Shown here: positions 55 through 4,286 of the stretch, piece after piece
How positions within the stretch are numbered: position 1 is the first letter of the stretch
Layout: each line of letters starts with the position of its first letter
Source: a virus
Direction: 5' to 3' (one strand)
Length of the DNA: 21,416 nt
Virus genome (UHGV): UHGV-1738141
Program-made: the position numbers and the translations under genes
The notes under the pieces: generated by a model
What the model was told of the DNA's origin: nothing
The model's input: only the letters and a program-made list of their open reading frames with translations
Database searches by the model: none

Positions 55-76
55 CCCGCCGCTGAGCGGTTTTTTT
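55..76 (+). terminator. Putative rho-independent terminator (short GC stem ccgc/gcgg, 3-nt loop, run of 7 T)
   Basis: Seen in sequence: ccgc-tga-gcgg at 59-69 followed by ttttttt at 70-76. Probably ends an upstream gene truncated by the window edge. Confidence 0.4.
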
Positions 77-198
77 GTACCTGTAAACTTGGTGCAGTAC
101 AGTAAACACGCTGGTGGTCGTGAATACTGACTTTTTATCTTGCTGGCTTTTTAGACAAGAGTTATTGGTATGTCATGTTAACCAGAAGGGGAAAAGAC

Positions 199-402
199 AT
201 GCTAAAACAGCAAGATATGACAGAAACCGCCGCCGCAGTCCTTCATTTCTTACCTGCTGACAAGTGGGTAACGCCACGCATGATGACGAGAACTACCGGA
301 GTAAGCGAAGCCCGGTGCCAGTTAATACTGACCCAGTTAGTTCTGGCGGGTCTGGCGAAGGGTAACGGCGGGTACGGGAATAAATTCAGACGCTGCCAGT
401 AA
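199..402 (+). CDS. Small (67 aa) putative winged-helix DNA-binding protein, PapI/FaeA-like
   Basis: ATG at 199 preceded by agaagggg (185-192); track ORF 175-402 trimmed to this start. Segment TTGVSEARCQLILTQLVLAGLAKG resembles the recognition helix and wing of small PapI/FaeA-type regulators. Family assignment is by pattern recall only. Confidence 0.45.
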   Translation: MLKQQDMTETAAAVLHFLPADKWVTPRMMTRTTGVSEARCQLILTQLVLAGLAKGNGGYGNKFRRCQ

Positions 403-552
403 TGGCGGTTTCCTGCTGTGAAAATGGGCGGCTGGTGGGTGTTGGTAGCACCTGCCAGCCATTCGCTCATGCTTACTGGTCACAAGCGAACCACGGCCCA
501 CTGCTTTAGCGCAAAAGCAGAGTGAGCCTACCAGAGTTACGCTTACTGATCC

Positions 553-1605
553 ATGAAAAACACTGTAAAAATAAACAGTGTTGATTTAATCAACGCTGAT
601 TGCCTGCATTTTATTCAGTCCCTGCCTGATGATTCCATTGACCTGATTGTTACCGATCCGCCGTACTTCAAGGTGAAACCCAACGGCTGGGACAATCAGT
701 GGAAAGGGGACGAAGATTACCTTAAGTGGCTGGATCACTGTCTGGCCCAGTTCTGGCGGGTGTTAAAACCTGCTGGAAGCCTTTACCTGTTCTGTGGGCA
801 TCGCCTGGCATCTGATATTGAGATCATGATGCGTGAACGTTTCAACGTGCTTAACCATATCATCTGGGCGAAGCCGTCCGGACGTTGGAATGGGTGTAAT
901 AAAGAAAGTCTGCGCGCATATTTTCCTGCCACAGAGCGCGTTCTGTTTGCTGAACATTACCAGGGGCCATATCGCGGCAAAAGTGACGGCTATGCGGCAA
1001 AAGAAAGGGAACTCAAACAGCACATAATGGCACCGCTGATATCGTATTTCAGGGATGCTCGTGCCGAACTGGGTATAACGGCAAAACAAATTGCCGAAGC
1101 CACAGGTAAGAAAAATATGGTTTCCCACTGGTTTGGTGCCAGTCAGTGGCAGTTGCCGAATGAGGCTGACTATCGGAAGTTACAGGCACTGTTTTCCCGT
1201 ATAGCGGCAGAGAAGTTTCAGGAACAACAACTGGAACAACCACACCACCAGCTGGTGGCATCTTATGATTCACTGAATCGCAAATATTCTGAATTGCTGG
1301 ATGAGTTTAAATCTCTCCGGCGCTATTTCTCCGTATCAGTCTCCGTGCCTTATACCGATGTCTGGACGCATAAGCCCGTTCAGTTCTACCCGGGTAAACA
1401 TCCGTGCGAGAAACCGGCGGATATGCTCCGGCAAATAATCAATGCCAGTAGTCGACCTGGTGATCTGGTTGCTGATTTCTTTATGGGATCCGGTTCCACA
1501 ATAAAAGCAGCAATGGCGCTGGGGCGTCGGGCGTTAGGTGTTGAACTTGAGTCAGAGCGGTTTAATCAGACGGTGAAAGAGGTAAGTGAACTGGTGGGGA
1601 AATAA
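553..1605 (+). CDS. DNA methyltransferase, beta-class amino-MTase (N6-adenine or N4-cytosine), YhdJ/phage Dam-like, with a central HTH-like insert
   Basis: Motif IV DPPY (IVTDPPYF) lies N-terminal and motif I FxGSGST (FFMGSGST) C-terminal, the circular permutation typical of beta-class MTases. The ~120 aa between them contains an HTH-like stretch GITAKQIAEATGKK. No restriction endonuclease partner is visible nearby. Confidence 0.85.
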   Translation: MKNTVKINSVDLINADCLHFIQSLPDDSIDLIVTDPPYFKVKPNGWDNQWKGDEDYLKWLDHCLAQFWRVLKPAGSLYLFCGHRLASDIEIMMRERFNVLNHIIWAKPSGRWNGCNKESLRAYFPATERVLFAEHYQGPYRGKSDGYAAKERELKQHIMAPLISYFRDARAELGITAKQIAEATGKKNMVSHWFGASQWQLPNEADYRKLQALFSRIAAEKFQEQQLEQPHHQLVASYDSLNRKYSELLDEFKSLRRYFSVSVSVPYTDVWTHKPVQFYPGKHPCEKPADMLRQIINASSRPGDLVADFFMGSGSTIKAAMALGRRALGVELESERFNQTVKEVSELVGK

Positions 1606-1612
1606 TTCTGGT

Positions 1613-1636
1613 GGCCACGTTGCGTGGCCTTTTTAT
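1613..1636 (+). terminator. Rho-independent terminator between methyltransferase and holin
   Basis: Perfect 7-bp inverted repeat ggccacg / cgtggcc (1613-1619 / 1623-1629) with loop ttg, followed by tttttatttcc. Confidence 0.55.
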
Positions 1637-1681
1637 TTCCAACACAGCACCCGCAAATATCGCGAGGTGAGAGATGACGAA

Positions 1682-2017
1682 ATGCCTCATAACCCAAATA
1701 CCTGGCCGGACTGGCTGGAGTTGTTTCAGAGCTGGTGGCGTGGAGACACACCGCTGGGTGCAGTGATTATGTCGATCGTTATGGCTGGTTTGCGCATCGC
1801 CTATTTTGGCGGTGGTGGTGGCTGGAAGCGAAAAACGCTCGAGATTTTGCTCTGTGGCGCTCTGACGCTGACCTTTGCATCCGCTCTTGAGTATGTCGGA
1901 TGGCCTAAATCACTTTCTGTTGCCATTGGTGGCGGCGTGGGGCTGATCGGTGTCGATGCTATTCGTGGGGCTGCAATGCGAGTAATCGGTAACAAGTTTG
2001 GTGGCTCTAAGGAGTAA
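1682..2017 (+). CDS. Holin, lambda S family (class I, three predicted TM segments)
   Basis: Start moved to in-frame ATG 1682 with gaggtgag RBS at 1665-1672; track ORF begins at 1586 inside the terminator. Hydrophobic segments GAVIMSIVMAGL, LLCGALTLTFASAL and SVAIGGGVGLIGV with a charged C-tail; sits directly upstream of the R-like endolysin. Confidence 0.75.
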   Translation: MPHNPNTWPDWLELFQSWWRGDTPLGAVIMSIVMAGLRIAYFGGGGGWKRKTLEILLCGALTLTFASALEYVGWPKSLSVAIGGGVGLIGVDAIRGAAMRVIGNKFGGSKE

Positions 2018-2020
2018 TTT

Positions 2021-2497
2021 ATGCAGGTACTAAATTCCCAGCGTAAAGCTTTCCTCGATATGTTGGCGTGGTCAGAAGGAACGGATAACGGGCGACAGCC
2101 AACCCGCAATCACGGCTACGACGTTATTGTAGGTGGTGAGTTATTCACGGATTACTCCGATCACCCTCGCAAACTTGTCACGCTAAACCCCAAACTCAAA
2201 TCAACAGCAGCCGGACGTTACCAGCTTCTTTCCCGTTGGTGGGATGCCTATCGTAAGCAGCTTGGCCTGAAAGACTTCTCTCCAAAAAGCCAGGACGCTG
2301 TTGCACTGCAGCAGATTAAGGAGCGTGGCGCTTTACCGATGATTGATCGCGGTGACATCCGTCAGGCAATCGACCGTTGCAGCAATATCTGGGCTTCACT
2401 GCCGGGCGCTGGTTATGGCCAGTTCGAGCATAAGGCTGACAGCCTGATTGCAAAATTCAAAGAGGCTGGCGGAACGGTCAGAGAGATTGAGGTATGA
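2021..2497 (+). CDS. R: Endolysin, lambda R-type lytic transglycosylase
   Basis: Translation ([21 protein letters not shown]...[31 protein letters not shown]...) closely matches phage lambda R as I remember it. aaggag RBS precedes ATG 2021. Confidence 0.9.
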
Positions 2498-2961
2498 GCA
2501 GAGTCACCGCGATTATTTATGCTCTGGTTATCTGCATCATCGTCTGCCTGTCGTGGGCGGTCAATCATTACCGTGATAACGCCATCGCCTACAAAGAACA
2601 GCGTGATAAAAAAGTCAGTGAGCTGAAGCAGGCGACCGCCACCATTACTGACATGCAGATGCGTCAGCGTGATGTTGCTGCGCTCGATGCAAAATACACG
2701 AAGGAGTTAGCTGATGCGAAAGCTGAAAATGATGCTCTTCGGCGCAAGCTTGATAATGGTGGTCGGGTGCTCGTCAAAGGAAAATGCTCTGTGCCATCCT
2801 CAGCCGAAACCTCCAGCGCCTCCGGCATGGGCAATGATGCCACCGTCGAACTCTCTCCAGTTGCTGGACGAAACGTTCTCGGTATCCGGGACGGAATCAT
2901 CAGAGACCAGACAGCACTGAGAACGCTTCAGGAATATATCAGGACGCAATGCCTTCGATGA
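2494..2961 (+). CDS. Rz: Rz i-spanin (inner-membrane spanin subunit)
   Basis: N-terminal TM anchor [30 protein letters not shown] followed by coiled-coil-like region, closely resembling lambda Rz at the N-terminus. ATGA overlap with the R stop. C-terminal third diverges from lambda. Confidence 0.85.
2714..2920 (+). CDS. Rz1: Rz1 o-spanin (outer-membrane lipoprotein), embedded in the +1 frame of Rz
   Basis: Signal peptide with lipobox ([19 protein letters not shown]), proline-rich mature region [11 protein letters not shown], and its own aaggag RBS at 2701-2706. Embedded architecture as in lambda Rz/Rz1. Confidence 0.8.
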
Positions 2962-3324: not shown

Positions 3325-3675
3325 ATGCCGCCACGAATCCCGAAAGCCTGCCGTGCTCGAGGTTGCCGTAATACCACCACTGACCCGTCAGGCTATTGCG
3401 AAAGCCACAAAAGCGAAGGCTGGAAGCAATACAAACCTGGACAATCCCGTCATCAGCGCGGCTACGGTTCGAAGTGGGACAGTATCCGCGCGCGTGTCCT
3501 GAAGCGTGACAAAGGCCTGTGTCAGTTATGTCTGCGTTCTGGTGTGGTGCGTGAGGCGAAAACTGTTGACCACATCATCCCTAAAGCGCATGGCGGCACT
3601 GATGCTGACAGTAATCTGCAGAGTCTGTGCTGGCCGTGTCATAAGGCGAAGACGGCCCGTGAACGGTTAAAGTGA
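3325..3675 (+). CDS. HNH endonuclease (terminase-associated type)
   Basis: N-terminal Cys cluster (C..C...C), HNH-type motif DHIIPKAHGG...N, C-terminal CWPCH zinc ligands. Located immediately upstream of the small terminase gene as in HK97-like cos phages. Confidence 0.85.
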   Translation: MPPRIPKACRARGCRNTTTDPSGYCESHKSEGWKQYKPGQSRHQRGYGSKWDSIRARVLKRDKGLCQLCLRSGVVREAKTVDHIIPKAHGGTDADSNLQSLCWPCHKAKTARERLK

Positions 3676-3800: not shown

Positions 3801-4286
3801 ATGGCTGGAACGGCGGGGCGTTCCGGGCGTCGCCCCAAGCCAACGGCGCGCAAGGCGCTGGCCGGAAACCCCGGCAAGCGAGCCCTGAATAAAGATGAAC
3901 CTGTTTTTACGCCCATCAAAGGTGTTGAGCCACCGGAGTGGTTCGCTGAAGAAGATCTCCCTCTCGCCACGATCATGTGGCAACTGACAACCAAAGAACT
4001 CTGCGGTCAGGGCCTGCTGTGCGTGACTGACCTGGCGGTACTTGAGCGGTGGTGTGTGGCCTATGAATTCTGGCGACGTGCCGTGAAAAATATTGCCAGA
4101 CAGGGCAACACCATCACCGGTGCAATGGGCGGCATGGTCAAAAATCCGGAGCTGACCGCCAAAAAAGAACAGGAGTCCGAGATGAGCAGCACGGGGGCAA
4201 TGCTCGGACTCGACCCCAGCAGCCGCCAGCGTCTGATTGGCCTGGCGGGGAAGAAGAAAGCCACTAACCCGTTTCTGACAATCTGA
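3801..4286 (+). CDS. Terminase small subunit (P27-family-like)
   Basis: Start at ATG 3801 with aggag RBS at 3788-3792; track ORF begins at GTG 3792. Basic N-terminus [13 protein letters not shown] and position immediately upstream of the large terminase. Confidence 0.75.

What the first reader, a model, noticed from the sequence alone, without database searches (positions are those of the whole stretch)
553..1605. Orphan beta-class DNA methyltransferase with an internal HTH-like insert next to the lysis genes
Motif order DPPY then FxGSGST identifies a beta-class amino-MTase of the YhdJ/phage Dam type. No restriction endonuclease is encoded nearby, so it looks like an orphan phage methylase (anti-restriction or epigenetic role). 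About 120 aa between the catalytic and AdoMet motifs contain an HTH-like stretch (GITAKQIAEATGKKNMVSHWFG), suggesting a built-in DNA-binding module. Target sequence cannot be inferred from sequence.
Basis: partly seen in the sequence, partly recalled or inferred. Interest (0 to 1): 0.5.

Follow-up and report, generated by a model that had tools for sequence, protein, structure and literature searches.

The report
Known phage non-specific adenine methyltransferase
The gene is a real, intact phage DNA methyltransferase, but it belongs to the already characterised M.EcoGII family, which methylates adenine in almost any sequence. The only possibly new thing nearby is a conserved folded RNA leader just upstream of the gene.

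Summary
Bases 553-1605 (+) encode an intact 350-aa beta-class amino-methyltransferase (Pfam N6_N4_Mtase, E=1.3e-42). DPPY lies at residues 35-38, FMGSGST at 310-316, and a helical HTH-like domain sits between them. The gene lies directly upstream of holin, endolysin and Rz/Rz1, and the window encodes no restriction enzyme.

The likely function is late, Q-dependent, largely sequence-independent m6A modification of progeny phage DNA to evade restriction. That is inferred from homology and gene position, not shown for this allele.

In passing, I found a ~130-nt structured leader ending at the start codon. It has strong covariation support, is absent from Rfam, and is often preceded by a small winged-helix ORF.

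The parts
58..79 (+). Intrinsic terminator-like hairpin plus T-run, at the position of the terminator annotated after the Q antiterminator gene in SfV (a tR'-like site)
   Evidence: Scan hit GCCGCTGAGCGGT+TTTTTTGTAC. It aligns with the annotated SfV terminator and is conserved, with stem variants, in phiP27 and Stx2_14040.
199..402 (+). Small conserved winged-helix protein (67 aa) upstream of the methyltransferase; function unknown
   Evidence: phrog_331, unknown function, E=1.4e-25. Found immediately upstream of the MTase in 54 of 80 loci from Escherichia to Xenorhabdus and Providencia. Winged-helix Pfam families match family members: TrmB 12/18, DprA_WH 11/18 with best E 5e-6. It has a good SD (GGGGA).
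424..552 (+). Conserved structured 5' leader of the MTase mRNA. Hairpin A is at 424-470. A long-range closing helix pairs 477-488 with 540-553. An inner hairpin is at 495-528. The closing helix ends at the AUG.
   Evidence: Window MFE -61.6 kcal/mol, z -2.33. RNAalifold and pair counts give 92% of cells paired against 26-42% when slid, and 19 of 39 pairs with double compensatory changes against 9.3+-1.7 in shuffles, 0/500. The covariance model hits 62 of 80 genome loci, always on the + strand and always ending at the MTase ATG. No Rfam match even at E<=10.
553..1605 (+). M.EcoGII-family beta-class N6-adenine DNA methyltransferase (SfV orf48 type), 350 aa
655..666 (+). Catalytic motif IV, DPPY (residues 35-38)
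   Evidence: Read directly from the sequence; invariant in 31 homologues.
1030..1263 (+). [quoted passage not shown]
1480..1500 (+). AdoMet-binding motif I, FMGSGST (residues 310-316)
   Evidence: Read directly from the sequence; invariant in homologues.
1613..1639 (+). Intrinsic terminator-like hairpin plus T-run between the MTase and the holin
   Evidence: GGCCACGTTGCGTGGCC+TTTTTATTTC; annotated as a rho-independent terminator at the same place in SfV.
1682..2961 (+). Context: lysis cassette (holin 1682-2017, endolysin 2021-2497, Rz 2494-2961, Rz1 2714-2920)
   Evidence: PHROG holin, endolysin and Rz-like spanin hits; same order in SfV.

Best explanation
This is the SfV-orf48-type allele of the M.EcoGII family of temperate-phage, beta-class N6-adenine methyltransferases. 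The Rossmann-fold catalytic core is split in the sequence (about residues 1-134 and 260-350). Between the two halves lies the target-recognition domain, a small helical bundle with an XRE-like helix-turn-helix (about residues 160-237), flanked by two charged helical linkers. By homology, the enzyme most likely works as a dimer and transfers methyl groups from AdoMet to adenine in almost any sequence context, on double- and single-stranded DNA and more weakly on RNA. On this reading the HTH and linkers supply non-specific nucleic-acid binding rather than sequence read-out. The gene sits in the late operon, downstream of the terminator that follows the Q antiterminator gene and upstream of the lysis genes, and is bracketed by terminator-like hairpins. 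It should therefore be silent in the lysogen and transcribed only when Q-modified RNA polymerase reads through after induction. Its probable role is to methylate replicating phage DNA heavily before packaging, so that progeny escape many adenine-methylation-sensitive restriction systems at once. Shown here: family membership, domain anatomy, gene position, absence of a partner nuclease. Taken from the literature on homologues: non-specificity, dimerisation, toxicity, silence in lysogens. Inferred: Q-dependent expression and the anti-restriction benefit.
Against: This allele has not been assayed, and an 18% difference from M.EcoGII could alter specificity. DNA-level specificity of the ancestors was measured only as bulk activity; the motif analysis was on RNA. 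I found no paper showing that virions of these phages carry hypermethylated DNA. Heavy M.EcoGII methylation lowers plasmid transformation by 4-5 orders of magnitude and makes DNA a substrate for m6A-dependent type IV nucleases, so heavy methylation carries costs. The M.EcoGII sequence I used was machine-read from a PDF table, so identities are good to about +-1-2%. My full-length model was poor (pLDDT 64.6), and the Foldseek search with the recognition domain was not significant. The Q promoter lies outside the window, so late expression rests on synteny.
Confidence: 0.8

Rival explanations
1. It is a sequence-specific orphan methyltransferase whose HTH domain reads a defined motif, as in the related site-specific enzyme M.PflMI, and it acts as an epigenetic regulator or protects against one particular restriction system.
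For: The HTH domain resembles sequence-specific XRE-type regulators and R-M controller proteins. M.PflMI, the nearest site-specific relative, is predicted to share the same overall fold. RefSeq names these proteins 'site-specific DNA-methyltransferase'.
Against: M.PflMI is only ~27% identical to M.EcoGII and lacks the charged linker. The window protein keeps both linkers without deletions and is 82-90% identical to enzymes shown to be non-specific. The HTH is as conserved as the core across the family. The RefSeq name is a generic pipeline label.
Confidence: 0.08
2. The enzyme is promiscuous, but evading restriction is not its main role. It might instead act on the host, for example by hypermethylating the chromosome or RNA to disturb host transcription, repair or defence during lytic growth, or it might mark phage DNA for replication or packaging.
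For: M.EcoGII is toxic and slows growth when expressed. It also methylates ssDNA, RNA and DNA:RNA hybrids. A review notes that many orphan phage methylases regulate viral cycles. The gene is co-transcribed with lysis genes, very late, when little time remains to modify DNA.
Against: No data support a host-directed role. RNA activity of M.EcoGII-clade enzymes is about 100-fold lower than DNA activity (Table S3). The window protein has Q179, like M.EcoGII and Anc291, not the E179 linked to high RNA activity. Broad protection from restriction is the authors' own interpretation.
Confidence: 0.1
3. The gene is a silent passenger: intact but never usefully expressed, because terminators and a start codon without a ribosome-binding site block it.
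For: M.EcoGI and M.EcoGII leave no methylation signature in the native strain. The gene lies between two terminator-like hairpins. It has no SD-like sequence upstream of the ATG, as in 68 of 79 related loci.
Against: The ORF is intact in over a thousand E. coli genomes and across Enterobacterales at 62-93% identity, with all catalytic motifs invariant. Its leader is maintained by compensatory substitutions. Both observations indicate purifying selection. Silence in lysogens is expected for a late gene.
Confidence: 0.02

Closest known systems
M.EcoGII (GenBank EGT69837.1; E. coli O104:H4 C227-11 prophage), the non-specific adenine methyltransferase
   Same: Same family, length and collinear architecture; ~82% identity; same DPPY and FxGSGST motifs, HTH recognition domain and charged linkers; prophage-borne.
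   Different: A different allele: the SfV type, sister to the M.EcoGII/phiP27 clade. It has 60-odd substitutions, including 18 of 78 in the recognition domain. It has not been assayed itself.
Phage SfV orf48, and the methylases of mEp460, cdtI, Ayreon and vB_EcoM-720R4
   Same: 98-99% nucleotide identity over the whole gene, and the same position between Q and the holin.
   Different: Essentially none. These are the same gene, annotated only as 'DNA methyltransferase' or 'unknown'.
Anc291 / Anc289 / SUPREM (Anc284), reconstructed M.EcoGII ancestors (PMC11551740)
   Same: 90%, 88% and 71% identity. All are active on DNA and RNA with no motif detected on RNA, and elute as dimers.
   Different: They are synthetic reconstructions. 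SUPREM carries E179 and much higher RNA activity, whereas the window protein has Q179.
M.PflMI (site-specific, CCANNNNNTGG)
   Same: The nearest characterised site-specific relative, with a similar predicted overall fold including the recognition domain.
   Different: Only ~27% identical to M.EcoGII. It lacks the charged interdomain linker that the window protein retains, and it is part of a restriction-modification pair rather than an orphan.
Phage Mu com-mom
   Same: Working resemblance only. Both involve a toxic, late, adenine-modifying phage enzyme that is silent in lysogens, preceded by a small ORF and by an RNA structure next to its start codon. The Mu details are from my own knowledge.
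   Different: There is no homology. The small ORF here is a winged helix, not the Com zinc ribbon. It is missing from about a quarter of loci that still keep the leader. Mom is not an AdoMet methyltransferase.

Membership tests
Beta-class N6/N4 amino-methyltransferases (Pfam PF01555) | Catalytic motif IV (DPPY) lies N-terminal to AdoMet motif I (FxGxG) | tested here: met
   DPPY at residues 35-38 and FMGSGST at 310-316.
Beta-class N6/N4 amino-methyltransferases (Pfam PF01555) | Profile match above the curated cut-off | tested here: met
   146.6 bits against 26.7, E=1.3e-42. Solved relatives M.RsrI, M.MboIIA and CcrM are matched.
M.EcoGII family | Full-length collinear similarity to M.EcoGII and placement within its clade | tested here: met
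   82% to M.EcoGII and 90% to Anc291; nested beneath the Anc291/289 nodes in a neighbour-joining tree. The reference sequence was machine-read from a PDF table.
M.EcoGII family | Split Rossmann core, plus a four-helix HTH recognition domain flanked by charged linkers | tested here: met
M.EcoGII family | Sequence-independent methylation of adenine in DNA and RNA | not testable with these tools
   Inferred from homology only; needs methylome sequencing or enzymology.
M.EcoGII family | Prophage-borne and silent in the lysogen | tested here: inconclusive
   The phage late-operon location is clear. Silence cannot be tested from sequence.
YhdJ (NCBIfam NF008572, equivalog) | Score at or above the curated cut-off of 292 bits | tested here: not met
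   109.8 bits, split into two stretches.
Dam-type (alpha-class) adenine methyltransferases | Motif order FxGxG then DPPY (established knowledge of the alpha class), and a match to a Dam-type (MethyltransfD12) Pfam model | tested here: not met
   The motif order is the reverse, and no Dam-type model appears among the Pfam hits up to E=1.
Type II restriction-modification system | A cognate restriction endonuclease gene adjacent to the methylase | tested here: not met
   The neighbours are a winged-helix ORF, holin, endolysin and spanins. The only nuclease, HNH at 3325-3675, sits beside the small terminase subunit like packaging HNH proteins. None is present upstream in SfV or the EFF60 prophage.
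XRE/Cro-C1 helix-turn-helix (Pfam PF01381) | Profile match above the cut-off of 23 bits | tested here: not met
   14.4-17.3 bits, E 0.005-0.04; 10 of 21 family members match at E<1. A PDB profile search finds only Aca3 at E=0.14.
XRE/Cro-C1 helix-turn-helix (Pfam PF01381) | Fold-level similarity of the domain | tested here: inconclusive
Mu com-mom type translational control | The upstream small ORF is a Com-like zinc-ribbon RNA-binding protein | tested here: not met
   The small ORF matches winged-helix families only, and only one cysteine is near-invariant in the family alignment.
Mu com-mom type translational control | An RNA structure occludes the translation start of the modification gene | tested here: inconclusive
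   A covariation-supported helix pairs 477-488 with 540-553 and ends at the AUG, and the gene lacks an SD. The effect on translation was not tested.

The most novel reading that the evidence does not exclude
Synthesis of this toxic, promiscuous methyltransferase may be controlled after transcription by a previously undescribed ~130-nt structured leader RNA. The leader's closing helix ends at the start codon of a gene that has no Shine-Dalgarno sequence. The small winged-helix protein encoded just upstream, or the enzyme itself, might assist. The logic would resemble Mu com-mom without any homology to it. The leader would be a new cis-regulatory RNA family specific to M.EcoGII-type genes across Enterobacterales phages, including Stx-converting phages.
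Probability: 0.4. Interest if true: 0.5.

Novelty: already known. Interest (0 to 1): 0.2.

Why it matters
The finding as given matters little. The gene is a common, already annotated phage methylase from a family whose biochemistry was published in 2018 and whose domain structure, including the HTH recognition domain, was published in 2024. Its practical value is as a correct annotation: 'M.EcoGII-family non-specific adenine methyltransferase', not 'site-specific' or 'Dam-like'. What remains open is biological. Nobody appears to have shown that these phages package hypermethylated DNA, or how a lysogen keeps so toxic an enzyme off. The conserved structured leader and the companion winged-helix ORF seen here offer a concrete, testable handle on the second question. 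They also sit just upstream of stx in some Shiga-toxin phages.

Tried and rejected
- **Full-length model.** The AlphaFold model from 31 close homologues was poor (pLDDT 64.6), so I modelled the central domain alone.
- **Sequence-level HTH.** Pfam HTH_3 and a PDB profile search stayed below threshold.
- **YhdJ and Dam.** The YhdJ equivalog was rejected on score, and Dam type on motif order.
- **Restriction partner.** None was found in the window or in near-identical phages. The HNH gene at 3325-3675 was judged a packaging HNH because of its position beside the small terminase subunit.
- **Reference sequence.** The supplement of the M.EcoGII paper is not held. I took the sequence from the machine-read Table S1 of PMC11551740 and corrected obvious reading slips against invariant family columns.
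- **In-phage role.** Three literature searches for the role of these enzymes in phage biology found nothing direct.
- **Rfam.** There was no hit at gathering thresholds in the whole window and none at E<=10 in the leader. A weak STnc130 match at 44-180 on the minus strand (22.8 bits against 55, E=0.57) was dismissed as chance.
- **Com-like reading of the small ORF.** Rejected on fold family. The ORF also cannot be an obligatory partner, because about 22 loci keep the leader without it or any consistent substitute.

Full report
**The observation**

Bases 553-1605 on the + strand are an uninterrupted ATG-initiated ORF of 350 codons. DPPY is at residues 35-38 (nt 655-666). FMGSGST is at residues 310-316 (nt 1480-1500). 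The stretch GITAKQIAEATGKKNMVSHWFG is at residues 174-195. Pfam N6_N4_Mtase matches at E=1.3e-42 across residues 29-341, aligned to a 221-position profile, so roughly 90-100 residues are extra. PHROG methyltransferase families match at about E=1e-100. Solved beta-class enzymes (M.RsrI, M.MboIIA, CcrM and others) match in two pieces, the N- and C-terminal halves of the core, with nothing matching the middle.

**Surroundings**

Downstream lie a lambda-family holin (1682-2017), an endolysin (2021-2497), and Rz (2494-2961) with Rz1 embedded (2714-2920). After these come an HNH nuclease next to the small terminase subunit, the large terminase, portal, protease, major capsid, connector proteins, tail sheath and tube, tape measure and baseplate. 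This is the SfV type of late region. None of these is a restriction endonuclease.

The window has only 552 nt upstream of the gene. In the near-identical phage SfV and in an E. coli prophage, however, the upstream genes are the Q antiterminator and ordinary early genes.

Terminator-like hairpins with T-runs sit at 58-79 and at 1613-1639. Both coincide with terminators annotated in SfV, one after Q and one after the methylase.

**How well known it is**

The gene is 98-99% identical in DNA to the methylase genes of phages SfV (orf48), mEp460, cdtI, Ayreon and others. It occurs in 1,244 of 5,426 complete E. coli genomes. A protein search returned 3,092 relatives, and the best 120 are all at least 76% identical.

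[quoted passage not shown] It is silent during normal growth, toxic when expressed constitutively, and able to methylate up to 99% of adenines in duplex DNA, as well as ssDNA, RNA and hybrids (PMC5778455).

I took the M.EcoGII sequence printed in Table S1 of PMC11551740. That text is machine-read, so the figures are good to a percent or two. The window protein is 82% identical to M.EcoGII over its full length, with at most single-residue gaps, which fall at spots where the printed sequence is unreliable; none lies in the linkers or the recognition domain. It is 90% identical to the reconstructed ancestor Anc291, 88% to Anc289 and 71% to SUPREM. In a neighbour-joining tree, the window protein and SfV are sister to the M.EcoGII/phiP27 clade, and both lie beneath the Anc291/Anc289 nodes. 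All those ancestors methylate DNA and RNA, and no motif was detected for M.EcoGII, Anc291 or SUPREM on RNA.

**The 'HTH-like insert'**

The same 2024 paper already describes M.EcoGII as follows:
- a Rossmann core at residues 1-134 and 260-349;
- a long charged linker, which is absent from the site-specific relative M.PflMI;

I tested this independently.
- By sequence, the HTH is only suggestive. Pfam HTH_3 gives 14-17 bits against a cut-off of 23, and 10 of 21 family members match at E<1. A profile search of PDB sequences finds only the HTH protein Aca3, at E=0.14.
- A full-length AlphaFold model from a shallow alignment was poor (pLDDT 64.6).
- A model of residues 140-260 alone reached pLDDT 74, with helices at 145-173, 177-184, 190-194, 204-223 and 231-259.
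- Foldseek found nothing significant, though its highest-probability matches were XRE-type HTH proteins.

So the domain is best called an XRE-like HTH recognition domain, at moderate confidence. It is not an insertion, because it occupies the canonical recognition-domain position of beta-class enzymes.

The domain is also private to this family. A phmmer search of residues 140-260 against 1.84 billion cluster representatives found only 129 proteins at E<=0.001. Most are 330-390 aa long and carry the domain at the same relative position. All ten that I checked carry PF01555, one with an N-terminal ParB domain.

Across 68 family members from different species, the HTH is as conserved (73% mean pairwise identity) as the core (73-76%). 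That is not the pattern of a domain switching specificities.

**How it most likely works**

Three things are shown here. The protein is an intact member of the M.EcoGII family with the full domain set. It has no partner nuclease. It lies in the slot between the Q-associated terminator and the lysis genes. That slot also holds stx and tRNA genes downstream of the methylase in phiP27 and in Stx2a phage Stx2_14040.

Three things are taken from work on homologues: sequence-independent adenine methylation, dimerisation, and toxicity with silence in lysogens.

Three things are inferred. Transcription should occur only by Q-modified polymerase after induction. The enzyme should methylate replicating phage DNA before packaging. 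Progeny should thereby evade many restriction systems at once, which is the interpretation the M.EcoGII authors themselves give.

There are caveats. I found no direct demonstration of hypermethylated virion DNA. Heavy M.EcoGII methylation reduces plasmid transformation by four to five orders of magnitude. It also makes DNA a substrate for m6A-dependent type IV nucleases.

Beta class, orphan status, phage origin, a built-in HTH DNA-binding module and a likely anti-restriction role are all supported. Three points need correction.
- 'YhdJ/phage Dam type' is imprecise. The protein scores 109.8 bits against a 292-bit cut-off for the YhdJ model. Dam-type (alpha-class) enzymes have the opposite motif order, and no Dam-type model appears among the Pfam hits.
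- 'Target cannot be inferred' overlooks the close homology to enzymes that have no target sequence.

**Noticed in passing, and the most interesting thing here**

The 150 nt between a small upstream ORF and the methylase start are more conserved among four different phages than the small ORF's own coding sequence. I fetched 80 related loci, one genome per species across Enterobacterales, with methylases 62-93% identical to the window's.

- *The small ORF.* In the window it is at 199-402 and encodes 67 aa. It lies directly upstream of the methylase in 54 of the 80 loci. It is a winged-helix protein of unknown function: phrog_331, with TrmB, DprA_WH, Rrf2 and MarR family matches.
- *The fold.* The leader folds into a long hairpin (424-470) and a second domain. 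In that domain, a helix pairs 477-488 with 540-553, ending at the AUG and enclosing another hairpin (495-528).
- *Covariation on 23 distinct leaders.* 81% of cells pair, against 30-46% when partners are slid. There are 26 doubly compensated cells, against 9.0+-2.4 in shuffles.
- *Distribution.* A covariance model built from these leaders hits 62 of the 80 genome loci, plus the window, SfV, phiP27, Stx2_14040 and the EFF60 prophage, at 62 bits or more. Every hit is on the sense strand and ends at the methylase ATG, including loci that lack the small ORF.
- *Covariation on the larger alignment.* On that 68-sequence alignment, which is fitted to the model and so leans towards it, 92% of cells pair against 26-42% slid. 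Nineteen of 39 pairs show double compensatory changes, against 9.3+-1.7 in shuffles (0/500). Frequent G-U pairs fit only the sense strand.
It is followed by a full-length methylase in 101 cases and by a contig end in 12 (9 with the methylase start visible); the other 8 have a disrupted, shifted or missing methylase.
- *Translation signals.* The methylase has no Shine-Dalgarno-like sequence, as in 68 of 79 related loci, whereas every neighbouring gene in the window has one.
- *Databases.* Rfam 15 has no match at all in this region.

I read this as a probable cis-acting structured leader that limits or times translation of a toxic enzyme. The logic resembles Mu com-mom, but there is no homology, and the small ORF is not an obligatory partner. 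This is an inference. Nothing here shows an effect on expression, and I did not search the literature specifically for this element.

**Verdict**

The finding is real and correctly read in outline, but it describes an already known and characterised kind of gene, so it scores low. The leader RNA and its companion ORF deserve a separate look.

Noticed in passing
window 424-552 (+): A conserved ~130-nt structured leader ends at the MTase start codon. It consists of hairpin 424-470, a long-range helix pairing 477-488 with 540-553, and an inner hairpin 495-528. Covariation support is strong (19 of 39 pairs with double compensatory changes; 0/500 shuffles reach this). It is present upstream of the MTase in 62 of 80 species' loci, always on the sense strand, and has no Rfam match. 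The MTase lacks a Shine-Dalgarno sequence.
   Followed up: yes
window 199-402 (+): A small 67-aa winged-helix protein (phrog_331, function unknown; invariant RCQLILTQL-like core) forms a two-gene module with the MTase in 54 of 80 loci from Escherichia to Xenorhabdus and Providencia. It is absent, without a consistent substitute, from about 22 loci that keep the leader. RefSeq labels the phiP27 homologue a TrmB-family regulator.
   Followed up: partly
window 545-555 (+): A GATC (Dam) site lies 2-3 nt before the MTase ATG (CTGATC[C/T]ATG). It is nearly invariant in the long-leader class and forms part of the closing helix. I did not examine whether Dam methylation plays a part.
   Followed up: no
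window 387-420 (+); L001 about 3835-3870; L003/L004 about 3335-3370: In SfV, phiP27 and Stx2_14040 the small ORF's stop codon lies inside a clean intrinsic terminator (GCCTTCAGTAATGAAGGC plus a T-run). In the window the stem is kept with a wobble pair, but the T-run has decayed (TTTCCTGCTGTG).
   Followed up: partly
phage records H56-H62 (e.g. Escherichia phage PA2, NC_028449.1 26969-27067): Many Stx2a-converting phages, such as Escherichia phages PA2 and PA28, keep only the last ~33 codons of this methylase (residues 316-348, 85-88% identical), in some records annotated 'DNA methyltransferase'. These look like deletion remnants of the same module. In phiP27 and Stx2_14040 the intact gene sits just upstream of the tRNA and stx genes.
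   Followed up: no
proteins P0003, P0005, P0006 versus window 553-1605: The alleles look mosaic. P0003 matches the M.EcoGII-like clusters in its N-terminal third but is nearly identical to the window protein in the rest. It also carries a 4-residue tandem duplication (QQLE) near the C-terminal end of the recognition domain (about residues 222-229). This suggests recombination among prophage alleles.
   Followed up: no
window 3325-3675 (+): An HNH endonuclease (116 aa, Pfam HNH E=1e-16) lies immediately upstream of the small terminase subunit, the usual arrangement for packaging-associated HNH proteins of HK97-like phages. It is not a restriction enzyme partner of the methylase.
   Followed up: partly
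L003 1708-2937 (phage phiP27): In phiP27 a 409-aa GIY-YIG family nuclease gene lies between Q and the small-ORF/methylase module. It is absent from the SfV and EFF60 prophage contexts. I did not examine whether it has any functional link to the methylase.
   Followed up: no
loci L057-L059, L061, L062, L064, L065, L068, L072, L073, L075-L081, L083, L084: Photorhabdus and Xenorhabdus relatives have a shorter leader (76-101 nt). It keeps a first hairpin through compensatory changes (e.g. GGCAGG/CCTGCC), there followed by a T-run like a terminator. Only five Photorhabdus loci (L057-L059, L064, L072) scored at all with the long-leader model, at 20-25 bits.
   Followed up: partly
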